NCBI GenBank assembly: GCA_003566505.1
Contig: PXDA01000034.1
Coordinates: forward strand, 1-27,386
Source of the DNA: Mollicutes bacterium
GTDB lineage: Bacteria; Bacillota_I; Bacilli_A; RF39; UBA660
Length of the DNA stretch: 27,386 nt
Direction of reading: 5' to 3'
Of the stretch, positions 2,920-11,141 are shown in pieces (the first letter of the stretch is position 1; each line of letters starts with the position of its first letter). The translations under genes and the position numbers were made by a program. The notes below the pieces were generated by a model. That model saw nothing but the letters and a program-made list of their open reading frames with translations, was not told where the DNA came from and ran no database searches.

Positions 2920-3130
2920 TAATAAAAAAATGCCCCAAATAGGACAAAAGACTTGTTATACCACCTAAAAAAGTAAGATATCTCCTAATAACGATGGGAA
3001 ACCGTCCTTTCCTACTTGTTTCAAAAAGGCTCTCCTTAGTCCATTCAACTATTTTTTGGTTACAATTTCACACCAACCAATTGCTCTCTTTAACCTTTCA
3101 TAGCATACTATTCTAAATCAACGATTTTTA
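2920..3130 (-). promoter_or_regulatory. T-box riboswitch (Trp)
   Basis: Minus strand: stem I AGAGAG and GGTTGGTGTGAA motifs; specifier GAA-TGG-A (TGG at 3041-3043); antiterminator TAGG-TGGTATA-ACAAG/TTTGT-CCTA; terminator TGTCCT-ATTT-GGGGCA followed by a T-run. Confidence 0.9.
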
Positions 3131-3132
3131 TT

Positions 3133-3161
3133 AATATATCGTATTTAACCCCAAATGTCAA
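3133..3161 (-). promoter_or_regulatory. Sigma-A promoter of the trpS leader
   Basis: TTGACA (3161-3156), 17 bp spacer, TATATT (3138-3133), directly upstream of T-box stem I. Confidence 0.75.
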
Positions 3162-4567
3162 ACATTGCTCTTATGCATTAATTCGACAAAAACTTTCACA
3201 ATATATGGATCAAATTGTTTGCCTGCTTCTCTTTTTAATTCTGATACTGCCTCTTTTTTTGTTCGCTTGGCTTTATAAACTCTACGCGCTGTCATTGCCT
3301 CATAAGCATCTGCTACTGCAATAATACGAGCGGGCAGGGGGATATTCTTTCCTTTCAAGCCATGTGGATAACCTTTACCATCCCATCTCTCATGGTGATA
3401 GAGCACATATTCCGCTAAAGCAACATACTCATCAGCCGATTTTAATATTTGGTAACCTATTTCCGGGTGACGATAAATTAATGCATATTCTTTATCACTT
3501 AGCTTCTTCTTTTTTACTAAATCTTCAGGAAAAATAATTTTACCAATATCATGCAAAATAGCAGCAGTTTTTAGTTCCTCTTTTTCCCTTTTGTTAAGTT
3601 GCAAATATGAAGCTATCATTTCACAAAACTTTGTTACTCTTTCATTGTGAATTTGTTCTTGCTTATATTTACCATTAACACTCGTTATAATATCATCAAT
3701 CATATTTTTACGTATCGTTTTAGTAGTCCTAATTTTATTTTTATACATTTTACTATCAGCAATTGCTTTTATTTCATTCATATTTTCTTTTTCATTATTT
3801 TTAATAGCATAACCAATCGCCAGTGAAATTTTAATCACACCATCAATCTTTTTTAAACTTGTTTTAGTTATTTTTTCTTGCAAATACGCCATTTCTTGTT
3901 CGTCAGTTTTTGGAACAATAAGCGCAAACTCATCACCACCGGTACGGCAAATAATAATTTTTTTGACACAAATATTACGCAAAATTTGTGCTACTTGTTT
4001 TAATAATTCATCGCCTTTATCATGCCCAAAAATATCATTTGTTAATTTCAAACCATTAACATCTAAAAACATAATACCTAATGGTAAATTAGCTTTATTA
4101 TCTAATTGAGCAATTATTTTTTCCATATAACGACGATTATATAATGATGTTAGATAATCACAATAACTTAAACTTTCAATTTCTTTTAATTTTGTTCTTT
4201 TTTCCATAGCATCACGAAAAGCAACCACAATTCCTTTTATTTTTTTATTTTTATCACGAATAAAGTTTATCGTTTGCTCAATCGGAATTTCATCATTATT
4301 TTTTATTTTTAAAACTGTTTCGGTTTCACGATCAATAATACTTTTTTTTGATTTTGGTTTTTCTAATTTTACCAAAAAATTACAAAGATTATTATCAGCG
4401 GCATTATAAACTTTATCAATCTTTTCACCTACTGCATCAGAGTATTTCCAACCAGTTAATTTTTCAGCTTGCGGATTTATGGCTATTATTGTGCCTTTTT
4501 CATCAGTTGCTATTATTCCTTCACCAACTGAGTCCAGTGTTGCCTCTAATATTTTGTCTTCCATCAT
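3158..4567 (-). CDS. PAS - GGDEF - HD-GYP c-di-GMP turnover protein
   Basis: N-terminal PAS-like segment (GEGIIATD..G.I..IN..AE.LTGW); DVNGLKLTNDIFGHDKGD and intact GGDEF; LHDIGK and HHERWDGKGYP. Confidence 0.93.
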   Translation of the reverse strand: MMEDKILEATLDSVGEGIIATDEKGTIIAINPQAEKLTGWKYSDAVGEKIDKVYNAADNNLCNFLVKLEKPKSKKSIIDRETETVLKIKNNDEIPIEQTINFIRDKNKKIKGIVVAFRDAMEKRTKLKEIESLSYCDYLTSLYNRRYMEKIIAQLDNKANLPLGIMFLDVNGLKLTNDIFGHDKGDELLKQVAQILRNICVKKIIICRTGGDEFALIVPKTDEQEMAYLQEKITKTSLKKIDGVIKISLAIGYAIKNNEKENMNEIKAIADSKMYKNKIRTTKTIRKNMIDDIITSVNGKYKQEQIHNERVTKFCEMIASYLQLNKREKEELKTAAILHDIGKIIFPEDLVKKKKLSDKEYALIYRHPEIGYQILKSADEYVALAEYVLYHHERWDGKGYPHGLKGKNIPLPARIIAVADAYEAMTARRVYKAKRTKKEAVSELKREAGKQFDPYIVKVFVELMHKSNV

Positions 4568-4614: not shown

Positions 4615-4644
4615 AAAAAAAAATAAGCACCAATTTGGTGCTTA
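4615..4644 (-). terminator. Intrinsic terminator of hsp20
   Basis: Perfect inverted repeat TAAGCACCA-att-TGGTGCTTA followed by a T9 run on the minus strand. Confidence 0.75.
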
Positions 4645-5034
4645 CTCAATCGGAATTAATCTTGTTTTTGTTTCAACCTCTTCTTTTGGAAAAGTTAATT
4701 GCAATGTGCCATCTTCAAATTTCGCTTTGATTTTATTTTCATCAAGATCTCCAACATAGTAACTTCTCGTTAGTTCACCATAAAATCTTTCTCTCTTAAT
4801 ATAATTTGCCTTCTTATCTTCATCCTCATCAGCTTTTTTAGCCGTAATTGTAACATAACCACTATCATAATCTACTTGCACTTCATCTTTTTTAAAACCA
4901 GGCACATCGACTTCAATGACATAATTACCATCTTTTTCATAAATATCTGAGCGCATTGTCATATTGTGTTTTTTCCTCTCGAAGAGGTCGTCAAACAAAC
5001 TACCAAAAAAAGGATCACGTGTCATTAAATCCAT
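4642..5034 (-). CDS. Small heat-shock protein (Hsp20/alpha-crystallin family)
   Basis: MRSDIYEKDGNYVIEVDVPGFKKDEV, YIKRERFYG, IKAKFEDGTLQLTFPK; SD GGAGGTGA. Confidence 0.95.
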   Translation of the reverse strand: MDLMTRDPFFGSLFDDLFERKKHNMTMRSDIYEKDGNYVIEVDVPGFKKDEVQVDYDSGYVTITAKKADEDEDKKANYIKRERFYGELTRSYYVGDLDENKIKAKFEDGTLQLTFPKEEVETKTRLIPIE

Positions 5035-5055: not shown

Positions 5056-5097
5056 ATAGTAACAAAACCTTTAGCACTTGTCAAGTCCGAGTGCTAT
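5056..5097 (-). promoter_or_regulatory. CIRCE (HrcA operator) overlapping the hsp20 sigma-A promoter
   Basis: TTAGCACTT-N9-GAGTGCTAT at 5071-5097 versus consensus TTAGCACTC-N9-GAGTGCTAA. It overlaps a minus-strand TTGACA (5084-5079), 17 bp, TACTAT (5061-5056) promoter. Confidence 0.85.
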
Positions 5098-5788
5098 TTT
5101 TTTTATATTTTTGCTCATATAATTTTTTTGCTAAATCCTTTTCATATTTAGTTAATTGACCAGACTCTAGTCTTATATTTTTCTTTTTCAATTCCTTTAC
5201 AAAACCGGTATGCATTTTTTCCAACAGCAAAGACATATTTATTTTTTGTTTTAAAACTTTATTCAAAGCATTTATATGTGGATTTTCATTATCAATAATA
5301 AGCGTTCCCTGCTGTAAAACAACTCCGTGTTTATTTGTTTGTGCATTACCAGAAATTTTCTTGCCATCCACCTCAATATCATATGGATTTTCATTTAAAT
5401 AACAATCATTAGCTTTTTTTTGATAATCTTTATTGCTATATTGAGCGGTTACTCCTAATTCTTTTAATCCTGCCAATAACATATCACCAATATAATAATA
5501 ATTTCGATCTATATCAAATAATTCACCTTTTTGCGCCATTACTACCATATAAGTAAAATCATTATTATGAAATACTGCTGAACCACCTGTTAAACGTCGC
5601 ACGCAAGCTGCAAATTTTTTTTCATAGTTTTGATGACAACCGATAGTAGTTATCGGTGTTTGAAAAGCATAAAAACGAACCGTATCAGGCACCCTGCCCT
5701 CAATACGAGCAATCATTATTGCTTCATCAATCGCCATTTGCATAGCACCATCAGCTGTCATAAAATTAATAAATCGCCATTTATTCAT
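5081..5788 (-). CDS. Lipoate-protein ligase family catalytic domain (LipM/LplA-like octanoyl/lipoyl transferase)
   Basis: QMAIDEAI, RRLTGGSAVFH, GKKISGNAQ (catalytic Lys), VLQQGTL; no C-terminal LplA accessory domain. Start at ATG 5788 overlaps the lipA stop. Confidence 0.88.
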   Translation of the reverse strand: MNKWRFINFMTADGAMQMAIDEAIMIARIEGRVPDTVRFYAFQTPITTIGCHQNYEKKFAACVRRLTGGSAVFHNNDFTYMVVMAQKGELFDIDRNYYYIGDMLLAGLKELGVTAQYSNKDYQKKANDCYLNENPYDIEVDGKKISGNAQTNKHGVVLQQGTLIIDNENPHINALNKVLKQKINMSLLLEKMHTGFVKELKKKNIRLESGQLTKYEKDLAKKLYEQKYKKNSTRT

Positions 5789-6599
5789 GATAATAACCAT
5801 CCCTTGCACGATATGAACTACGTACCAACGGACCCGCTGCTACATATTGAAAACCCATTTGATAAGCCATTTCTTTAATTTCGGCAAATAATTCTTCACT
5901 ATAATATTTTTGCACTGGTGCTTTTTTATCACTAGGCGGAAGATATTGACCAATCGTTATTATATCAACGCCTACAGCACGCAAATCTTGTAATGTCATT
6001 TTAATATCAGTCATATCTTCCCCAAAACCAACCATTAAACCTGATTTTTTCTTAACCTTATTTACTTTTTGCAATAACATTAAAGAACGATCATAATTTC
6101 CTTGCGGACGCAATTTTGGAAAATAATTACGTACTACCTCAATATTATGATTTAAAACATCGGGTTTTGCTCTTAATATTTTCGCCAATGCCTCCCAATT
6201 ACCATTTAAATCTGATATTAATACTTCTATTTTCACATGGGGATTTTTTCTTCGAATTGCTTCCATTACGGATACTATATACTCAGCACCACCATCTATT
6301 AAATCATCACGTGTCACTTGTGTTAAAACAACATAATTTAACTGTAAATCAGCAATTGTTTGCAAAATTTTTACAATCTCACTTTCATCAACCATTCCTG
6401 GTATTCCGCTTGTTACATTACAGTAATGACAATTACGGGTACAAATATTTCCCAACAACAAAAAAGTTGCTGTCTTGGCAGCAAAGCATTCGTAACGATT
6501 GGGACAATTAGCTGCTTGGCAAATAGTATTTACATGATGTATTTTTTGATAATTTTTTAAATATGCCAAGCGATTAAATTCATTCAACTTAATATTCAT
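5781..6599 (-). CDS. lipA: Lipoyl synthase (radical SAM)
   Basis: Auxiliary cluster motif CQAANCPNRYEC (Cx4Cx5C), radical SAM motif CTRNCHYC, NHNIE and C-terminal VRSSY. Confidence 0.93.
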   Translation of the reverse strand: MNIKLNEFNRLAYLKNYQKIHHVNTICQAANCPNRYECFAAKTATFLLLGNICTRNCHYCNVTSGIPGMVDESEIVKILQTIADLQLNYVVLTQVTRDDLIDGGAEYIVSVMEAIRRKNPHVKIEVLISDLNGNWEALAKILRAKPDVLNHNIEVVRNYFPKLRPQGNYDRSLMLLQKVNKVKKKSGLMVGFGEDMTDIKMTLQDLRAVGVDIITIGQYLPPSDKKAPVQKYYSEELFAEIKEMAYQMGFQYVAAGPLVRSSYRARDGYYHE

Positions 6600-6609
6600 T
6601 TGACACCAA

Positions 6610-7926
6610 CTAATTATTTTTTAAAAAGGTTACTTTTTTTTCAGCAATAATAGCAGCAACACTTAAAGGTTCAAAAACGGAAACCGTTGCCGGATTATAA
6701 CAAGTTTCTAATTTTGACAGTTCATTGACTGTCATTTTTTGTTTTATCGCTAAAGACAATAAATCTAATCGTCCTACTATTTCACCATGCGCAATTATTT
6801 GACCACCCAAAATAACACCTTCACGATCAAAAATTAATTTTATAATTATTTTTTCTTTTTCACTATAGTATTTAGCTCGTAAATTATCACGATATTTAAC
6901 ACTTAATACTTCTAAACCCATTGCTTGGGCACGGTTTTCAGTCAGGCCTACAGAACCAACATAAATATCACCCATTTTAGAAACAGTATTATTAACAACT
7001 GCTTCGCCTGCTTGAGTAAATCCACAAATATTTGCTGCCAACATCCGCGCTTGTAAAACAGCTAGCGAACCTAATTGACTAACAATTTTTGCATCACTAT
7101 TAAATTCTTTTTGCTCAATGCAATCACCAATAGCATAAATATTTTCACGAGAAGTTTGAAAAAATTCATCAACAACAATTCCCTTATTAACTTTTAATGA
7201 CAATTTTTGAGCAATTTCAGCATTAACTCGAAATCCTGTACAAACAAACAGCTTATCAAAAATTACTTCTTTATTTTCTAAAATAACACGATTATCTTTA
7301 ATTTCTTTTATGTGAGCCACTACTTCAACATTTAATTCTTTAAAAAAATCTAATAACTCTTGGGCGATGTCTTTATCAAGCATATTAGTTAGAATATTTT
7401 GTTCCTTTTCAATTAATGTTACTTCCTCACCTTTTTCTTTTAATGCACAAGCAAGTTCCATGCCAATCATACCAGCACCAATAATAACTGATTTACTATC
7501 TTCATTAATATTTGCTTTAATCTTTTTAACATCATCAATTGTTTTCAATTGATAATAATCATGCTCTGAAAGTCCTTTTATTTTCGGTATAAAAGATACA
7601 CCACCAGTAGCAATAATTAATTTGTCATATTCAATTTCCTTTTCTTGATCATTGTTTTTATAAAAAACTTTACTGGCATTAACATCATATACTTCACTAT
7701 TTAATAAAATTTTTATATTATTCTTTTCGTAATCTTCCTTTTGATAAATAAAAACCTTCTCCACAGATGGAATTTCATCATTAATTAAATAAGGTAGGGC
7801 GCATGGCGAATAATCATAATAACTACTTTTCTCAATTATTATGATTTCCATTTCTTTATCTAATTTACGTAATTCAAAAGCACAACTTGTGCCAGCGCTG
7901 CCACCACCAATTATAACAACCCGCAT
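6610..7926 (-). CDS. FAD-dependent pyridine nucleotide-disulfide oxidoreductase (CoA-disulfide reductase / NADH oxidase family)
   Basis: FAD motif IIGGGSAG, single redox Cys in YSPCALPY, NAD motif IIGAGMIGMELA, YAIGDC, and a C-terminal dimerisation domain (LGGQI..., ETCYNP). Confidence 0.9.
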   Translation of the reverse strand: MRVVIIGGGSAGTSCAFELRKLDKEMEIIIIEKSSYYDYSPCALPYLINDEIPSVEKVFIYQKEDYEKNNIKILLNSEVYDVNASKVFYKNNDQEKEIEYDKLIIATGGVSFIPKIKGLSEHDYYQLKTIDDVKKIKANINEDSKSVIIGAGMIGMELACALKEKGEEVTLIEKEQNILTNMLDKDIAQELLDFFKELNVEVVAHIKEIKDNRVILENKEVIFDKLFVCTGFRVNAEIAQKLSLKVNKGIVVDEFFQTSRENIYAIGDCIEQKEFNSDAKIVSQLGSLAVLQARMLAANICGFTQAGEAVVNNTVSKMGDIYVGSVGLTENRAQAMGLEVLSVKYRDNLRAKYYSEKEKIIIKLIFDREGVILGGQIIAHGEIVGRLDLLSLAIKQKMTVNELSKLETCYNPATVSVFEPLSVAAIIAEKKVTFLKNN

Positions 7927-7935
7927 AAAAACCTC

Positions 7936-8331
7936 CTATAAAGACAGTTTTTCTTGATAATACGATAATGCTTCTTTGGCTTCCATTAATTCTGTTAAAT
8001 CCTTTTTATCGTTTATTTTTATTTTTACAAGCCAATTATCATACGGAGCCTTATTTAACAAACTTGGTTCATTAAAAACTGCCATATTTACCGCCACTAC
8101 TTCGCCATTTACCGGCGTCGTGATTTCACCTGACCATTTTACGGCTTCTAAATTAACATAAACTGCGCCTTTTTGCAATTGGGCGCCTTCTTGTGGCAAC
8201 ATAGCAAAAATAAATTCTTCAACCTGTTGCGCAGCCGGTGCTATAATCCCTAAAGTTACCACATCTTCTTCTTCCTTAATCCATGAGTAATCTTTACTAT
8301 ACTTTCGATCTTCAGGAAAACTATTATTCAT
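7936..8331 (-). CDS. Glycine cleavage H-protein-like lipoyl carrier
   Basis: FPEDRKYSKDYSWIK, lipoyl-Lys hairpin LEAVKWSGEITTPVNGEV, LNKAPYDNWLVKIK. Start at ATG 8331 with SD AAGGTGA. Confidence 0.88.
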   Translation of the reverse strand: MNNSFPEDRKYSKDYSWIKEEEDVVTLGIIAPAAQQVEEFIFAMLPQEGAQLQKGAVYVNLEAVKWSGEITTPVNGEVVAVNMAVFNEPSLLNKAPYDNWLVKIKINDKKDLTELMEAKEALSYYQEKLSL

Positions 8332-9253
8332 TTTTATCACCTTCTCCAAATCCAATCTTTTTTTCATATATTTCCGCAATTATTAACGAAACAACAATAA
8401 TACTACCAAACAAAATAATGGTTTGTGTTATATTATTTAACACTTTTAAATCCAAAAATAAAATTATCGCCAAAGCAACCATAATTAAGCCACCAACTAA
8501 TTTTAAAATGCGCCCTTGTTTTTCCTCAAATTTATTAATTTTTAAAGTAAATACAACTACCAAAAATATCGTTATTTCTACTAAAAAATATGTCAAAATA
8601 TAAACAACAAATAATAGATTAAAAAAGGAACTCGACACTTCATAACTTGCAACAATCCCGGTCCATGTTGCCGGCAGACCAGCAGTACAAGGAAGTTCTA
8701 CTAGGGTAATTCCTAAAGCCATCATGGCCGAACCAATTACTAATCCTTTAAAACTATTATTAGGATTTAACAAATTACGAACTCTTTGGTATAACTTTGG
8801 TTTATAAGAATCGGAAATAGTTAACGATACCCCTTTTTTATACCAAAAGAAATCTTTAACATTAACAAGTCCAAAAATTAACGCAATTGAAGCAACTACA
8901 ACTGTAATAATGCGTAAGTGTTCAACATAATCAACCACCCTAATCATTGTCAGAATAAAAGCTCCATAAGCAGAAGCAGCCACTAATAAATAAGTAAAAC
9001 CAATAATAATAATTTTTTTGCGATCTTTTGTAAGCGCAACAATACCAAGTAAAAATGCTAAAACCCAAAGTGAACAAGGATTAAGACCATCAACAAAAGC
9101 AATTAAAAACGTTGAAAAAATAAGCGGCATTTCATCCAAGGAAATTACTCTGCCAAAAAGTGTAATCTCTTCACTAGCAATATCAATCGGCAAGAAAAAA
9201 AGACTAATAATAAGACCTAATATCGCCAATTTTATTATCATCGATTTTGACAT
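8324..9253 (-). CDS. CcdA/DsbD-like transmembrane disulfide electron transporter
   Basis: About 7-8 hydrophobic segments, with two intramembrane Cys in DGLNPCSLWVL and VELPCTAGLP. Confidence 0.75.
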   Translation of the reverse strand: MSKSMIIKLAILGLIISLFFLPIDIASEEITLFGRVISLDEMPLIFSTFLIAFVDGLNPCSLWVLAFLLGIVALTKDRKKIIIIGFTYLLVAASAYGAFILTMIRVVDYVEHLRIITVVVASIALIFGLVNVKDFFWYKKGVSLTISDSYKPKLYQRVRNLLNPNNSFKGLVIGSAMMALGITLVELPCTAGLPATWTGIVASYEVSSSFFNLLFVVYILTYFLVEITIFLVVVFTLKINKFEEKQGRILKLVGGLIMVALAIILFLDLKVLNNITQTIILFGSIIVVSLIIAEIYEKKIGFGEGDKNE

Positions 9254-9271
9254 TTATAACCCTCCTTTTGA

Positions 9272-9691
9272 CTAATTTCTAAAAACAATATCATAGGCTT
9301 TATCATCACAACCATCAATAATACATTGTTTGATTGTCTCTTCCATTTCCGACACCATGTTTTGGTTAAAGCCACGCCATACTTTCTCACCAATAAAAGT
9401 AGTAGGTACGCCTTCAACTTCAACGCCATATGCGGCTGCTACTTCTTCAAACATATCAATATTTTCACGCGATTGCCATGCTTTAATCTCTTTTATTTTT
9501 ACCTCTTCATATTTTTCCGCAAACTCTTCTAAATATGGCTTTTGTTCATTACAAAACGGGCATCCATCATCAGAAAAGAAATAAACAATAACATCTTCAC
9601 GAGAAAAATCATTATTATCAATCTCATTTTCATCATTAAAACAACCAACCGCCATAATTAAAATCAATATTCCTAAATATATTTTTTTCAT
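9272..9691 (-). CDS. Thioredoxin/glutaredoxin-fold lipoprotein
   Basis: Start at ATG 9691 (SD GGGAGG); signal peptide MKKIYLGILILIMAVGC with lipobox; active site CPFC; cis-Pro loop GVPTTFIG; extra C-terminal CIIDGC. Confidence 0.85.
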   Translation of the reverse strand: MKKIYLGILILIMAVGCFNDENEIDNNDFSREDVIVYFFSDDGCPFCNEQKPYLEEFAEKYEEVKIKEIKAWQSRENIDMFEEVAAAYGVEVEGVPTTFIGEKVWRGFNQNMVSEMEETIKQCIIDGCDDKAYDIVFRN

Positions 9692-9713: not shown

Positions 9714-11141
9714 TTACTTAATCACAATATCCCAGTAAGTCTTTTCCCGTGTATCACGAAGCACAACACCTTTATTCAACAACTGCGTTCGCACTTGATC
9801 TGCTTCATTATATTCGCCTTTTTCTTTAAGTGCTTGTCGTTTCGCAATCAATTTTTCTATTTCCTCTTCATTGATATTATTTTTAGCTAAATATTTATCT
9901 TTAATTTCTGTAATAACTTTTTCCGGTTTTTGTTGTAAAATGCCTAAAACATCATATACTTTAATAATGCACTCTTTTAAAGTAGCGGCCTCTACTATTT
10001 CTTCATCAGCGATTAATTTTTCTAATCTACTAATATAATTAAATAAATTAGCAAAAACCACTGGCGTATTAAAATCATTGTTCATAGCTTCCTTAAATTC
10101 TTCATCAATCTTTTGCAATGTTTCAGCATCGGCCGATAAATTATGAGTATCCACCATTTTATCTATTTTATTAAACAACTGATAAATTCGATAAATCCTC
10201 GCTTCGTTTTCTTCAAACATACCATCAACAATATTTAAATATGAACGATAACTATTATGTAACAATGTCATACGAATAACATCACGATTATATTTTTCCA
10301 AAAGTTCCGAAAGTAAAATACTGTTGCCTAACGATTTACTCATTTTTTGACCATTAATATTTACCAAACCATTATGAATCCAATAACGTGCAAATTGCTT
10401 GCCCGTTAAAGCTTCCGTTTGTGCTATTTCATTTTCATGATGCGGAAATAATAAATCTTCACCACCACCATGAATATCAAGTGTTGCACCTAAATACTTC
10501 ATACTCATCGCTGAACACTCAATATGCCATCCCGGCCTTCCGCGACCCCAAGGTGAATCCCACGCCATTTCATCATCAGTTATCTTCCACAAAGCAAAAT
10601 CATGTTCATCGCGTTTGCCCGGTTCAATTTCCTTTCTTGTTCCCGCCACATTTTTTTCTAATGTTCGATTAGAAAATTTGCCATAATGGGGAAACGTAGC
10701 GACTGCAAAATAAACATCGCCATTTTCGCTAACATAAGCATAATCCTTTTCAATCAACTTTTCGATAAAAGCAATCATATCACTAATGCATTCTGTTGCT
10801 TTTGCCAATACCGTTGGAGGCTTTACACCTAATTGCGCTAATTCTTCATCCGTTTTTTCTATTAATTGTTTAGCATAATCGCTGGCATCAATTCCTAAAT
10901 CACGAGCGCGATTGATTATTTTATCATCCACATCGGTATAATTGCGAACATAATTTACTTCATAACCTAAATACATTAAATATCGGTATATCATATCAAA
11001 AACAACTGCTTGATATGCATGTCCAATATGAGCATCATCAGAAACAGTAATGCCACAAGCATACATCTTTACCTGGTTGTTTTCTTCTGTTACAAATTCT
11101 TCTTTTTTTCGCGTTAACACATTATAAACTTTTAAAGACAT
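9714..11141 (-). CDS. cysS: Cysteine--tRNA ligase
   Basis: MYACGITV..AHIGH, NYTDVDDKII, PWGRGRPGWHIECSAM, HGGGEDL.FPHHENE, KMSKSLGN. Confidence 0.98.
   Translation of the reverse strand: MSLKVYNVLTRKKEEFVTEENNQVKMYACGITVSDDAHIGHAYQAVVFDMIYRYLMYLGYEVNYVRNYTDVDDKIINRARDLGIDASDYAKQLIEKTDEELAQLGVKPPTVLAKATECISDMIAFIEKLIEKDYAYVSENGDVYFAVATFPHYGKFSNRTLEKNVAGTRKEIEPGKRDEHDFALWKITDDEMAWDSPWGRGRPGWHIECSAMSMKYLGATLDIHGGGEDLLFPHHENEIAQTEALTGKQFARYWIHNGLVNINGQKMSKSLGNSILLSELLEKYNRDVIRMTLLHNSYRSYLNIVDGMFEENEARIYRIYQLFNKIDKMVDTHNLSADAETLQKIDEEFKEAMNNDFNTPVVFANLFNYISRLEKLIADEEIVEAATLKECIIKVYDVLGILQQKPEKVITEIKDKYLAKNNINEEEIEKLIAKRQALKEKGEYNEADQVRTQLLNKGVVLRDTREKTYWDIVIK

What the first reader, a model, noticed from the sequence alone, without database searches (positions are those of the whole stretch)
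5081..9691. Candidate lipoate-based transmembrane electron relay: Trx lipoprotein - CcdA - H-protein - flavin disulfide reductase - LipA - LipM operon
Seen: six co-oriented genes with gaps of 18 bp or less, or 8-bp overlaps. They encode an exported CPFC thioredoxin lipoprotein, a CcdA/DsbD-like membrane protein with two Cys, a lipoyl carrier, an NAD(P)H flavoprotein with one redox Cys, and a self-contained lipoylation kit. No GcvT/GcvP or 2-oxoacid dehydrogenase subunit is in the operon. Established: CcdA/DsbD normally takes electrons from cytoplasmic thioredoxin and passes them to exported CxxC proteins. Stand-alone lipoyl carriers act in redox roles in the GcvH-L/sirtuin/macrodomain operon and the sHdr-LbpA sulfur oxidation system, but with other partners. 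Inference: NAD(P)H -> flavoprotein -> lipoyl-H -> CcdA -> surface thioredoxin, with a dedicated lipoylated protein replacing thioredoxin. I do not know of this architecture being described.
Basis: partly seen in the sequence, partly recalled or inferred. Interest (0 to 1): 0.82.

Follow-up and report, generated by a model that had tools for sequence, protein, structure and literature searches.

The report
Lipoyl-protein cassette feeding a membrane thiol relay
A tiny soda-lake bacterium carries a six-gene operon, shared with ultra-small archaea, that builds a lipoic-acid carrier protein with no normal metabolic partner and joins it to a DsbD-like membrane protein and a surface thioredoxin. This points to an undescribed, still untested way of passing reducing power across the membrane.

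Summary
Six co-oriented, tightly packed genes at 5081-9691 (minus strand) encode a CPFC thioredoxin-fold lipoprotein, a two-cysteine membrane protein, a GcvH-type lipoyl carrier, a single-cysteine CoADR/Nox-type flavoprotein, LipA and an LplA-type enzyme.

The membrane protein has no Pfam model, but its predicted fold matches DsbD/CcdA. In 105 of its 120 closest homologues it is fused to the same thioredoxin domain.

The membrane gene is directly followed by the GcvH gene in 12 of 13 related genome loci, including DPANN archaea. Conversely, all four GcvH representatives of this clade (Lys-Trp motif) that I looked up follow a gene of fusion size, confirmed as the fusion in two.

The four genomes of the genus show no GcvT, E2, classical lipoamide dehydrogenase, ACP or ketoacyl synthase. 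GcvP and a second lipoyl domain were sought, and not found, in the window's genome only. TrxA and TrxB are present, so lipoate adds to thioredoxin rather than replacing it.

Within its bacterial family only this genus has LipA and GcvH, which suggests horizontal acquisition.

Best reading (about 0.55): NADH to flavoprotein to lipoyl-GcvH to membrane cysteines to surface thioredoxin. Direction, direct transfer and targets are untested. "LipM" is not supported.

No paper describing it was found. This scan had already noted the module at least eight times in CPR and DPANN genomes.

The parts
9272..9691 (-). Exported thioredoxin-fold lipoprotein (139 aa). It has lipobox MAVGC, active site CPFC, a cis-Pro motif VPTTFIG and a second Cys pair, C-x4-C, near the C-terminus.
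   Evidence: Pfam Thioredoxin_2, Glutaredoxin and AhpC-TSA score above their cut-offs. The AF2 model has pLDDT 97-98 in the folded part, a minimal beta-alpha-beta-alpha-beta-beta-alpha fold, and matches thioredoxins and glutaredoxins at probability 1.0. The same domain is fused to the N-terminus of the membrane protein in 105 of 120 homologues. The lipobox Cys is conserved in L006 and L007.
8324..9253 (-). DsbD/CcdA-like membrane thiol-disulfide conduit (309 aa). An N-terminal signal or anchor helix is followed by seven long helices. Cys60 (NPCSLW) lies at a break in core helix 1 and Cys189 (ELPCTAG) at a break in core helix 4.
   Evidence: It matches no Pfam or NCBIfam model. Both Cys motifs are invariant in 40 homologues. 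The AF2 model has pLDDT 80.6. The top 30 AFDB Swiss-Prot matches are all DsbD, at probability 1.0 and TM 0.5-0.55 over residues 41-308. CcdA 5VKV scores Z 7.5 with 204 of 224 residues aligned. The nearest Atlas clusters carry DsbD_TM, SfLAP or DsbD_2.
7936..8331 (-). GcvH-type lipoyl carrier (131 aa) of a clade marked by LEAVKWSGH, with Trp after the lipoyl Lys. Its ATG overlaps the stop of the membrane gene by 8 nt.
   Evidence: PF01597 scores 5e-31, but the protein falls below both GcvH equivalog cut-offs. It aligns with the lipoyl Lys of pea and E. coli H-protein. The Lys is invariant and the Trp is present in 15 of 16 clade members. It is the only GCV_H or lipoyl domain in the genome.
6610..7926 (-). 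Single-cysteine NAD(P)H flavoprotein disulfide reductase of the CoADR/Nox/Npx group (438 aa), without a rhodanese domain. Cys42 lies in YSPCALPY.
   Evidence: Pyr_redox_2 scores 2e-62 and the dimerisation domain is present. CoADR models score 306 and 279 bits, far below their cut-offs. The nearest solved structures are A. fulgidus NoxA-3 (6PFZ), CoADR (3ICR) and CoA-persulfide reductase (8A56). Cys42 is invariant in 12 clade members. Apart from TrxB, it is the only lipoamide-dehydrogenase-like protein in the genus.
5781..6599 (-). Lipoyl synthase LipA (272 aa).
   Evidence: NF004019 scores 342 bits against a cut-off of 203. The CX4CX5C, CX3CX2C and RSSY motifs can be read in the translation.
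5081..5788 (-). LplA-type lipoate/octanoate-protein ligase catalytic (large) subunit (235 aa). Its ATG overlaps the LipA stop by 8 nt. No LplB-like small subunit follows it here.
   Evidence: PF21948 LplA-B_cat scores 2e-27. The best NCBIfam match is LplA_large, covering 1-242 of 248 profile positions but below the cut-off. An LplB-like gene of 86-104 aa follows LplA in L003, L013, L015, L017, L045, L047 and L126. It was not found in G000, G001 or G003.
9714..11141 (-). cysS (context). It ends 22 nt before the thioredoxin gene and is probably co-transcribed with it.
   Evidence: The same order is seen in L006 and L007. No convincing promoter or terminator lies in the gap.
4642..5034 (-). hsp20 (context), with its own promoter-like site (TTGACA-17-TACTAT with TG, 5084-5056) and a terminator (4647-4621).
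   Evidence: It is conserved downstream in L006 and L007.

Best explanation
The operon encodes a private lipoyl-protein redox module joined to a DsbD-type membrane conduit.

1. The LplA-type enzyme attaches scavenged octanoate (or lipoate) to the one GcvH-like carrier, and LipA inserts the two sulfurs.
2. The single-cysteine flavoprotein uses NAD(P)H, probably NADH, to reduce the lipoyl dithiolane through a Cys42-lipoyl mixed disulfide.
3. The dihydrolipoyl arm then reduces the Cys60-Cys189 pair of the membrane protein from the cytoplasmic side.
4. That pair reduces the CPFC site of the surface thioredoxin lipoprotein, which keeps unknown extracytoplasmic cysteines or other oxidised targets reduced.

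Shown here: the gene content and motifs, the fold of the membrane protein, the Trx-membrane fusions, the conserved neighbourhood across domains, and that canonical lipoate-dependent enzymes were not found.

Inferred: every electron-transfer step and its direction, the acyl source, and the targets.
For: - Anatomy and translational coupling.
- The membrane protein is DsbD/CcdA-like by fold, with one invariant Cys in each of two broken helices.
- The Trx domain and the membrane domain are one polypeptide in 105 of 120 homologues.
- Membrane-to-GcvH adjacency holds in 12 of 13 genome loci, including Woesearchaeota, Undinarchaeota and Micrarchaeota. It also holds in three metagenome loci, two of which carry the full set.
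- Reciprocally, four of four Lys-Trp-type GcvH representatives follow a no-Pfam gene of fusion size, confirmed as the Trx-membrane fusion in L125 and L126. Where the contig continues (L126), a CMD/AhpD-like CxxCxxxH protein, the flavoprotein, LipA, LplA and LplB come next; L127 shows CMD and the flavoprotein before its contig ends, and L125 CMD only.
- The genus lacks GcvT, E2, classical Lpd, MsrA and ACP/KAS in the genomes searched. The window's own genome lacks GcvP and any second lipoyl domain. Five DPANN carriers show no GcvT, and one of the five has an E2.
- Lys140 in the predicted cytoplasmic loop is invariant in 18 of 18 GcvH-linked membrane proteins but is Glu in 40 of 59 unlinked ones, and the window's GcvH is acidic, pI 4.6. 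This is only suggestive.
- Established knowledge: characterised DsbD, CcdA and ScsB proteins carry reductant outwards; CoADR-type enzymes reduce disulfides and persulfides with NAD(P)H; and lipoyl is a strong reductant (E0' about -0.29 to -0.32 V; PMC13692748).
- The NADH to Lpd to lipoyl-DlaT to AhpD to AhpC chain of M. tuberculosis is a precedent for a lipoyl protein reducing a CxxC protein (PMC12028322).
Against: - There is no biochemical or expression evidence. No RNA run was listed.
- The genome has TrxA and a TrxB-like reductase, so the usual donor for a DsbD-type protein is available.
- Of 80 members of the wider membrane family sampled from metagenomes, 77 show no GcvH next to the membrane gene (19 of those contigs end within 600 nt downstream, so adjacency could not be judged). 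They sit near ArsR, permease and Thioredoxin_3 genes instead.
- Many relatives carry an AhpD-like protein that may be the true link. It is missing here.
- The surface domain has CP[HYF]C, a DsbA/Grx-like dipeptide that usually goes with more oxidising potentials.
- No LplB subunit was found, so how the carrier is acylated in this genome is unclear.
- No usual target of such relays was found in the genus: no MsrA, no true peroxiredoxin in three of the four genomes, and no DsbD_TM partner set.
- The genome is only 77% complete.
Confidence: 0.55

Rival explanations
1. Same parts, opposite direction. The surface CP[HYF]C domain oxidises exported cysteines (a DsbA-like role). The membrane protein passes the electrons inward to oxidised lipoyl-GcvH. 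The flavoprotein then re-oxidises dihydrolipoyl with NAD+ or O2. This would be a quinone-free substitute for DsbB or VKOR in cells without a respiratory chain.
For: - CPHC, the commonest motif in the fused domains, is the DsbA motif, and CPYC is the glutaredoxin motif.
- The Trx domain has a conserved second Cys pair that looks like a structural disulfide.
- 13 of 17 predicted lipoproteins in this genome contain cysteine, and 6 of them have exactly two.
- Lipoamide dehydrogenases normally run in the oxidising direction, and relatives of this flavoprotein include NADH oxidases.
Against: - Lipoyl disulfide is a very poor oxidant (about -0.3 V) for a DsbA-like site, so the reaction would need O2 as a sink. 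Many carriers come from anoxic sediments and aquifers.
- All characterised DsbD-superfamily conduits move reductant outward.
- The domain is a minimal Trx/Grx fold without the DsbA helical insert.
- AhpD-like partners in relatives are known as reductive adaptors.
- The Cys parity sample is too small to weigh.
Confidence: 0.15
2. GcvH, the flavoprotein, LipA and LplA form a purely cytoplasmic lipoyl-based antioxidant or disulfide/persulfide reductase, like Lpd-DlaT-AhpD or S. aureus GcvH-L. The Trx-membrane pair is only co-regulated with it as part of one thiol-stress regulon and is fed by ordinary thioredoxin.
For: - TrxA and TrxB are present.
- An AhpD-like protein is present in many relatives.
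- The nearest relatives of the flavoprotein include CoA-persulfide reductase.
- TusA, YeeE and DGC genes lie beside the module in L010.
- GcvH-L protects S. aureus from oxidative stress (PMC12440151).
- hsp20 lies directly downstream.
Against: - Co-regulation alone does not explain why gcvH is the gene immediately after, and often overlapping, the membrane gene in every carrier examined, while the order of the other genes varies.
- No cytoplasmic peroxiredoxin partner was found in three of the four genomes of the genus.
Confidence: 0.2
3. The H-protein is an ordinary lipoyl relay or glycine-cleavage component whose partners lie in the unassembled part of the genome, and its position beside the membrane gene has no functional meaning.
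For: - The window's genome is 77% complete.
- The protein is close to canonical GcvH overall: 113 bits against a cut-off of 117.
- Most of the best-scoring representatives of the clade profile are canonical GcvH.
Against: - No GcvT or E2 was found in four genomes of the genus, including one that is 95% complete. The window's own genome has no GcvP and no second lipoyl domain.
- None of five DPANN carriers has GcvT, and four of the five lack an E2.
- Adjacency is conserved across domains.
- LipA and GcvH are found in none of 21 other genomes of the same family.
Confidence: 0.05

Closest known systems
DsbD / CcdA / ScsB transmembrane reducing pathways (for example E. coli DsbD, Bacillus CcdA-ResA/StoA, pneumococcal CcdA-Etrx)
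   Same: A membrane protein with one essential Cys in each of two helices, a DsbD-like predicted fold, and an extracytoplasmic thioredoxin-fold CxxC partner that is often fused to it.
   Different: - It matches no DsbD_TM or DsbD_2 Pfam model, and the Trx domain is N-terminal.
- The gene fixed beside it is a lipoyl carrier with its own reductase and lipoylation enzymes, not thioredoxin.
- No cytochrome c maturation or Msr targets were found.
Mycobacterium tuberculosis NADH-Lpd-DlaT-AhpD-AhpC peroxidase relay (PMC12028322)
   Same: A flavoprotein reduces a protein-bound lipoyl group, which then reduces a CxxC protein. Relatives of this operon even carry a CMD/AhpD-like CxxCxxxH protein between GcvH and the flavoprotein.
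   Different: - The carrier is a dedicated GcvH, not an E2 borrowed from a metabolic complex.
- The reductase is a single-Cys CoADR/Nox-type enzyme, not a class I Lpd.
- The proposed acceptor is a membrane conduit, not AhpC.
- This window has no AhpD-like gene.
Stand-alone lipoyl carriers with non-canonical roles: the GcvH-L/LplA2/SirTM/macrodomain operon (PMC4518038, PMC12440151) and sHdr-LbpA sulfur oxidation (PMC6067878, PMC10332631)
   Same: A GcvH-family protein with its own dedicated ligase, used outside glycine cleavage and tied to redox or sulfur chemistry.
   Different: - The loci examined contain no sirtuin, macrodomain, sHdr, DsrE or LipS1/S2 genes.
- The partners here are a DsbD-like membrane protein, an exported thioredoxin and a CoADR-type flavoprotein.
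Bipartite archaeal LplA/LplB lipoate-protein ligase (Thermoplasma type), working here with LipA
   Same: The catalytic subunit matches the LplA large-subunit model over its whole length. Relatives carry the small LplB-like gene right after it.
   Different: The window and its two closest relatives lack the small subunit. The score is far below the family cut-off.

Membership tests
DsbD/CcdA superfamily (membrane protein 8324-9253) | Two conserved cysteines, one in each of two transmembrane helices (TM1 and TM4 of the core), flanked by Pro | tested here: met
   Cys60 (NPCSLW) and Cys189 (ELPCTAG) are invariant in 40 homologues. Each lies at a helix break in the AF2 model.
DsbD/CcdA superfamily (membrane protein 8324-9253) | Match to the family's sequence models (PF02683 DsbD_TM, PF13386 DsbD_2) | tested here: not met
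   No hit for the window protein. Among 40 homologues, one gives a weak DsbD_2 hit and three give SfLAP hits.
DsbD/CcdA superfamily (membrane protein 8324-9253) | Fold of the DsbD transmembrane domain or of CcdA | tested here: met
   The top 30 AFDB Swiss-Prot hits are all DsbD, at probability 1.0 and TM 0.5-0.55. CcdA 5VKV gives Z 7.5 and covers 204 of 224 residues, but ranks ninth among helical proteins. Foldseek against the PDB found nothing.
DsbD/CcdA superfamily (membrane protein 8324-9253) | Extracytoplasmic thioredoxin-fold CxxC acceptor | tested here: met
   105 of 120 homologues are N-terminal Trx fusions. Here the acceptor is a separate lipoprotein 18 nt upstream.
DsbD/CcdA superfamily (membrane protein 8324-9253) | Outward transfer of reducing equivalents from a cytoplasmic dithiol donor | not testable with these tools
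   This needs biochemistry.
Glycine cleavage H-protein (7936-8331) | GCV_H domain with a lipoyl-lysine hairpin | tested here: met
   PF01597 scores 5e-31. The Lys aligns with the lipoyl Lys of pea and E. coli H-protein.
Glycine cleavage H-protein (7936-8331) | Scores above the GcvH equivalog/subfamily cut-offs | tested here: not met
   113 bits against 117 (NF002270) and 85.5 against 115.85 (TIGR00527). The clade has KW instead of KA after the lipoyl Lys.
Glycine cleavage H-protein (7936-8331) | GcvT and GcvP present in the genome | tested here: not met
   Not found in the window's own genome. GcvT was not found in four genomes of the genus. Incomplete genomes limit this result.
CoA-disulfide reductase / NADH oxidase / NADH peroxidase group (6610-7926) | FAD and NAD(P)H Rossmann domains, a dimerisation domain, and a single redox Cys near residue 42 | tested here: met
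   Cys42 is invariant in the clade.
CoA-disulfide reductase / NADH oxidase / NADH peroxidase group (6610-7926) | Equivalog-level match to CoADR or Nox | tested here: not met
   306 bits against 579, 279 against 458 and 208 against 600. It is a separate clade of the group, and its substrate is unknown.
Lipoyl synthase LipA (5781-6599) | Radical-SAM CX3CX2C, auxiliary-cluster CX4CX5C and RSSY motifs, and a score above the cut-off | tested here: met
   342 bits against 203. The motifs can be read.
LipM octanoyl-ACP:protein transferase (5081-5788) | Uses octanoyl-ACP made by fatty-acid synthesis | tested here: not met
   No ACP (PF00550) or ketoacyl synthase (PF00109) was found in four genomes of the genus. 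The best family match is the LplA large subunit.
Bipartite LplA/LplB ligase (5081-5788) | The small LplB subunit needed for acyl-adenylate formation | tested here: not met
   It is present after LplA in G002 and in archaeal loci. It was not found in G000, G001 or G003.
Lpd-DlaT-AhpD-AhpC-type lipoyl relay | An AhpD (CMD, CxxCxxxH) adaptor and an AhpC acceptor | tested here: not met
   A CMD gene is present in relatives L045, L125, L126 and L127. It was not found in this genome by tblastn. No true peroxiredoxin was found in three of the four genomes of the genus.
sHdr-LbpA sulfur oxidation | sHdr genes and DsrE/TusA sulfur transferases beside the lipoyl carrier | tested here: not met
   None lie in the window's operon or in the related loci, except TusA, YeeE and DGC in L010. 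The whole genome was not searched for Hdr genes.

The most novel reading that the evidence does not exclude
Protein-bound lipoate, made by a private LipA/LplA kit and recycled by a dedicated single-Cys flavoprotein, is the physiological cytoplasmic electron donor of a distinct branch of DsbD-like membrane conduits. This makes it a thioredoxin-independent route for exporting reducing power. The route is shared by DPANN archaea, CPR bacteria and, through horizontal transfer, a genus of tiny soda-lake Bacilli, and it explains why genomes without any lipoate-dependent metabolism keep lipoate synthesis.
Probability: 0.5. Interest if true: 0.85.

Novelty: new variant of a known kind. Interest (0 to 1): 0.72.

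Why it matters
Lipoate is known as the swinging arm of 2-oxoacid dehydrogenases and glycine cleavage, with a few recent exceptions (sHdr-LbpA, GcvH-L). Here, genomes of about 0.6-1 Mb that have shed fatty-acid synthesis, glycine cleavage and all E2 enzymes still pay for LipA, a ligase, a carrier and a dedicated reductase, and they place the carrier gene right after a DsbD-like conduit.

If the proposed relay is real, it gives three things:
- a new cytoplasmic donor for transmembrane thiol reduction;
- a function for orphan lipoylation in CPR, DPANN and reduced Bacilli;
- a compact set of five or six proteins that can be rebuilt in vitro.

It would also be a clear case of a redox cassette shared between ultra-small archaea and bacteria living in the same habitats.

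Tried and rejected
- Sequence profile of the membrane family against PDB sequences: no hit. Foldseek against the PDB: nothing meaningful.
- Pfam scan of 40 family members: only scattered weak hits.
- Wider family survey: 77 of 80 metagenome loci show no GcvH next to the membrane gene, so the link is a property of sub-lineages and not of the whole family. On the tree the linked proteins cluster but need 4-6 changes.
- The roughly 30%-identical paralogues in other genera of the same family have no lipoate genes nearby.
- A strict search for specificity-determining positions gave only six columns, two of them in the cytoplasmic loop. A looser ranking put most discriminating columns on the predicted cytoplasmic face, but it is confounded by phylogeny and by loop variability.
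- Cysteine parity of 17 predicted lipoproteins is too small a sample to decide direction.
- A word-based homologue search with GcvH found only 11 proteins. The exhaustive profile search is dominated by canonical GcvH.
- Sequencing runs: only two DNA runs with 5-8% of the sampled words, and no RNA run was listed, so there is no expression evidence.
- Rfam: no riboswitch or leader in or before the operon. The only T-box lies at 2937-3130.
- Six literature searches found no description of this architecture.
- The idea that lipoate replaces a missing thioredoxin system is rejected.
- The LipM reading is rejected.

Full report
**What is there**

On the minus strand, six genes run from 9691 to 5081 with gaps of 18, -8, 9, 10 and -8 nt.
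- 9272-9691: a 139-aa lipoprotein (lipobox MAVGC) with CPFC. It passes the Pfam cut-offs for Thioredoxin_2, Glutaredoxin and AhpC-TSA.
- 8324-9253: a 309-aa membrane protein with no Pfam or NCBIfam match.
- 7936-8331: a GCV_H protein (5e-31) that scores just under the GcvH equivalog cut-offs.
- 6610-7926: a 438-aa pyridine-nucleotide disulfide oxidoreductase of the CoADR/Nox group, far below every equivalog cut-off, with the single redox Cys in YSPCALPY.
- 5781-6599: LipA, above its cut-off, with all three Cys/RSSY signatures.
- 5081-5788: an LplA/LipB-family catalytic domain whose best match is the LplA large subunit.

cysS ends 22 nt upstream with no promoter-like site in between. hsp20 follows downstream with its own TTGACA-17-TACTAT site and a terminator. 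No Rfam element lies in or before the operon.

**The organism**

The window is contig 38 of a 560-kb assembly that is 77% complete. TGA is used as a stop codon. The closest public records are soda-lake MAGs labelled Mollicutes or Bacilli bacterium, carrying the same operon at 57-95% identity. The surrounding family consists of genomes of 0.8-1.3 Mb.

**The membrane protein**

- It belongs to a large, well-conserved family: more than 1,400 hits, with mean column identity 59% in a 40-sequence alignment. The family has two invariant cysteine motifs, NPCSLW and ELPCTAG.
- In 105 of the 120 best homologues the N-terminus carries one or two copies of the same thioredoxin domain that is a separate lipoprotein here. 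The two proteins therefore form one functional unit.
- The AF2 model (pLDDT 80.6) has a signal or anchor helix followed by seven long helices, with each Cys at a helix break.
- Against AlphaFold Swiss-Prot, all 30 best matches are DsbD (probability 1.0, TM 0.5-0.55, residues 41-308).
- An exhaustive structural comparison with the PDB puts the CcdA NMR structure at Z 7.5 with 204 of 224 residues aligned. The nearest ESM Atlas clusters carry DsbD_TM, SfLAP or DsbD_2.
- Sequence methods do not see the relationship.
- The thioredoxin model (pLDDT 97-98 in the fold) is a minimal Trx/Grx fold without a DsbA-type insert. The family also conserves VPxTFIG and a C-x4-C pair near the C-terminus.

**Is the link between the two halves real?**

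- Starting from the membrane protein, 12 of 13 related loci in species-representative genomes have a GcvH gene directly after it. These include Woesearchaeota, Undinarchaeota and Micrarchaeota. Most also carry the flavoprotein, a further Trx gene or LplA, while the gene order otherwise varies.
- In 80 metagenome loci of the wider family (40-54% identity), only three have GcvH, and two of those carry the complete set. In 19 of the other 77 the contig ends within 600 nt downstream of the membrane gene, so adjacency could not be judged. The rest lie near ArsR, permease, Thioredoxin_3 and cation-efflux genes.
- On a tree the linked proteins cluster: an all-linked clade of nine joins this genus with DPANN sequences, and a clade of 55 contains none. 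Even so, at least four changes of state are needed.
- Starting from GcvH, the clade is marked by LEA(V/M)KWSGH, whereas canonical GcvH has ESVKA.
- All four Lys-Trp-type representatives that I looked up sit right after a gene with no Pfam match. In three it is 405-479 aa; in the fourth it is cut by the contig end. I confirmed the gene as a Trx-membrane fusion in L125 and L126.
- In L126 there follow a CMD/AhpD-like CxxCxxxH protein, the flavoprotein, LipA, LplA and a small LplB-like protein. L127 shows CMD and the flavoprotein before its contig ends, and L125 shows CMD only.
- The fixed core is therefore the Trx-membrane protein plus GcvH.

**Is the H-protein explained by ordinary metabolism?**

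- In the window's own genome there is no GcvT, GcvP, E2, second lipoyl or biotinyl domain, or DsbD_TM protein.
- In the four genomes of the genus, one of them 95% complete, there is no E2, GcvT, class I lipoamide dehydrogenase, MsrA, ketoacyl synthase or ACP. The only lipoamide-dehydrogenase-like proteins are the operon's flavoprotein and TrxB.
- Five DPANN genomes with the module have no GcvT, and one of the five has an E2.
- Within the bacterial family, LipA and GcvH are found in all four genomes of this genus and in none of 21 others. Those others carry only a 30%-identical paralogue of the membrane protein without lipoate genes.
- Together with the tree, this points to horizontal acquisition of the cassette, most likely exchanged with DPANN archaea. 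The direction of transfer was not tested.

- The genome has a standard thioredoxin (102 bits) and a TrxB-like reductase (292 bits). All five DPANN carriers also have a TrxR-like gene. Lipoate is an added donor, not a stand-in for a lost thioredoxin system.
- With no ACP or fatty-acid synthesis, an octanoyl-ACP transferase (LipM) makes no sense. An LplA-type ligase working on scavenged octanoate or lipoate, followed by LipA, fits better.
- The LplB-like small subunit that follows LplA in G002 and in the archaeal loci was not found in this genome or in its two closest relatives. This is unexplained.

**Mechanism**

I favour the following chain, at about 0.55: NADH to flavoprotein (Cys42-lipoyl mixed disulfide) to dihydrolipoyl-GcvH to Cys60/Cys189 to the CPFC lipoprotein to unknown surface targets.

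The reasons are:
- the outward reductive role of every characterised DsbD-family protein;
- the reductase chemistry of CoADR-type enzymes;
- the low potential of lipoyl (PMC13692748);
- the AhpD-like adaptors in relatives, which recall the M. tuberculosis Lpd-DlaT-AhpD-AhpC chain (PMC12028322);
- the tight, often overlapping membrane-gcvH gene pair.

A weak extra hint comes from Lys140 in the predicted cytoplasmic loop. It is invariant in 18 linked proteins but is Glu in 40 of 59 unlinked ones, and the carrier in this window is acidic.

Three rivals remain:
- the reverse, oxidising direction, suggested by the DsbA/Grx-like CP[HYF]C dipeptide and by cysteine-containing lipoproteins;
- a purely cytoplasmic lipoyl antioxidant or persulfide reductase that is merely co-regulated with the membrane pair;
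- missing canonical partners in the unassembled part of the genome.

No step of electron transfer has been shown.

**Novelty**

Six full-text searches found no paper describing a lipoyl carrier coupled to a DsbD/CcdA-type conduit. Recent lipoate reviews and surveys do not mention it.

This scan has flagged the same module at least eight times in CPR and DPANN genomes, and those notes agree with what I found. New here are:
- its presence in a reduced Bacilli lineage;
- the split lipoprotein form of the thioredoxin;
- the lack of the AhpD-like and LplB-like genes;
- the genus-restricted distribution that indicates transfer.

Noticed in passing
window 5081-9691, compared with G004-G024: Within the bacterial family, LipA and GcvH occur only in this genus (4 of 4 genomes, against 0 of 21 others). 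The membrane protein groups with Woesearchaeota and Undinarchaeota sequences at 56-58% identity. This suggests that the whole cassette was transferred between domains.
   Followed up: partly
L027-L040 (for example G010:C4:9271-9969): Other genera of the same family, and two further families of the class, carry a paralogue of the membrane protein of about 400 aa and roughly 30% identity. It has no lipoate genes within 8 kb, and its partner and role are unknown.
   Followed up: partly
L010:2935-4549: In an Undinarchaeota locus the module is followed directly by genes for a DGC-domain protein, TusA and a YeeE/YedE-type sulfur transporter. This hints at a link to sulfur trafficking in some carriers.
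   Followed up: partly
L012:15156-15782, L013:4333-5001, L017:13485-14135: Three archaeal loci share an exported protein of about 210 aa with no Pfam match. Two of them conserve a GYCPTM motif and the third has ACRTM at the matching place. It lies next to the module and could be a target or an accessory protein.
   Followed up: no
L011:3061-3825, L012:12100-12837: A short-chain dehydrogenase gene is inserted between the second Trx gene and the flavoprotein gene in two Woesearchaeota loci (Pfam-confirmed in L012).
   Followed up: no
P0132 (1391 aa): The best-scoring protein in the exhaustive GcvH-clade search is a very long protein with three matched H-protein-like stretches. The copies visible in the first 400 residues lack the lipoyl-lysine motif.
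   Followed up: no
G000 whole genome: 13 of 17 predicted lipoproteins contain cysteine in the mature part, and 6 of them have exactly two. This is unusual for Bacillota, which tend to avoid cysteine in exported proteins.
   Followed up: partly
window 3158-4567 (-) and 2937-3130 (-): A PAS-GGDEF-HD-GYP signalling protein lies just downstream of hsp20. A T-box leader (97 bits) precedes the next gene, 1918-2907.
   Followed up: no
L016 = L003 = G002:C1: The 62.5-kb contig that carries the fused form of the operon is labelled 'uncultured Muribaculaceae bacterium' in its public record, yet it belongs to a genome placed in the same genus as the window. The label looks wrong.
   Followed up: no
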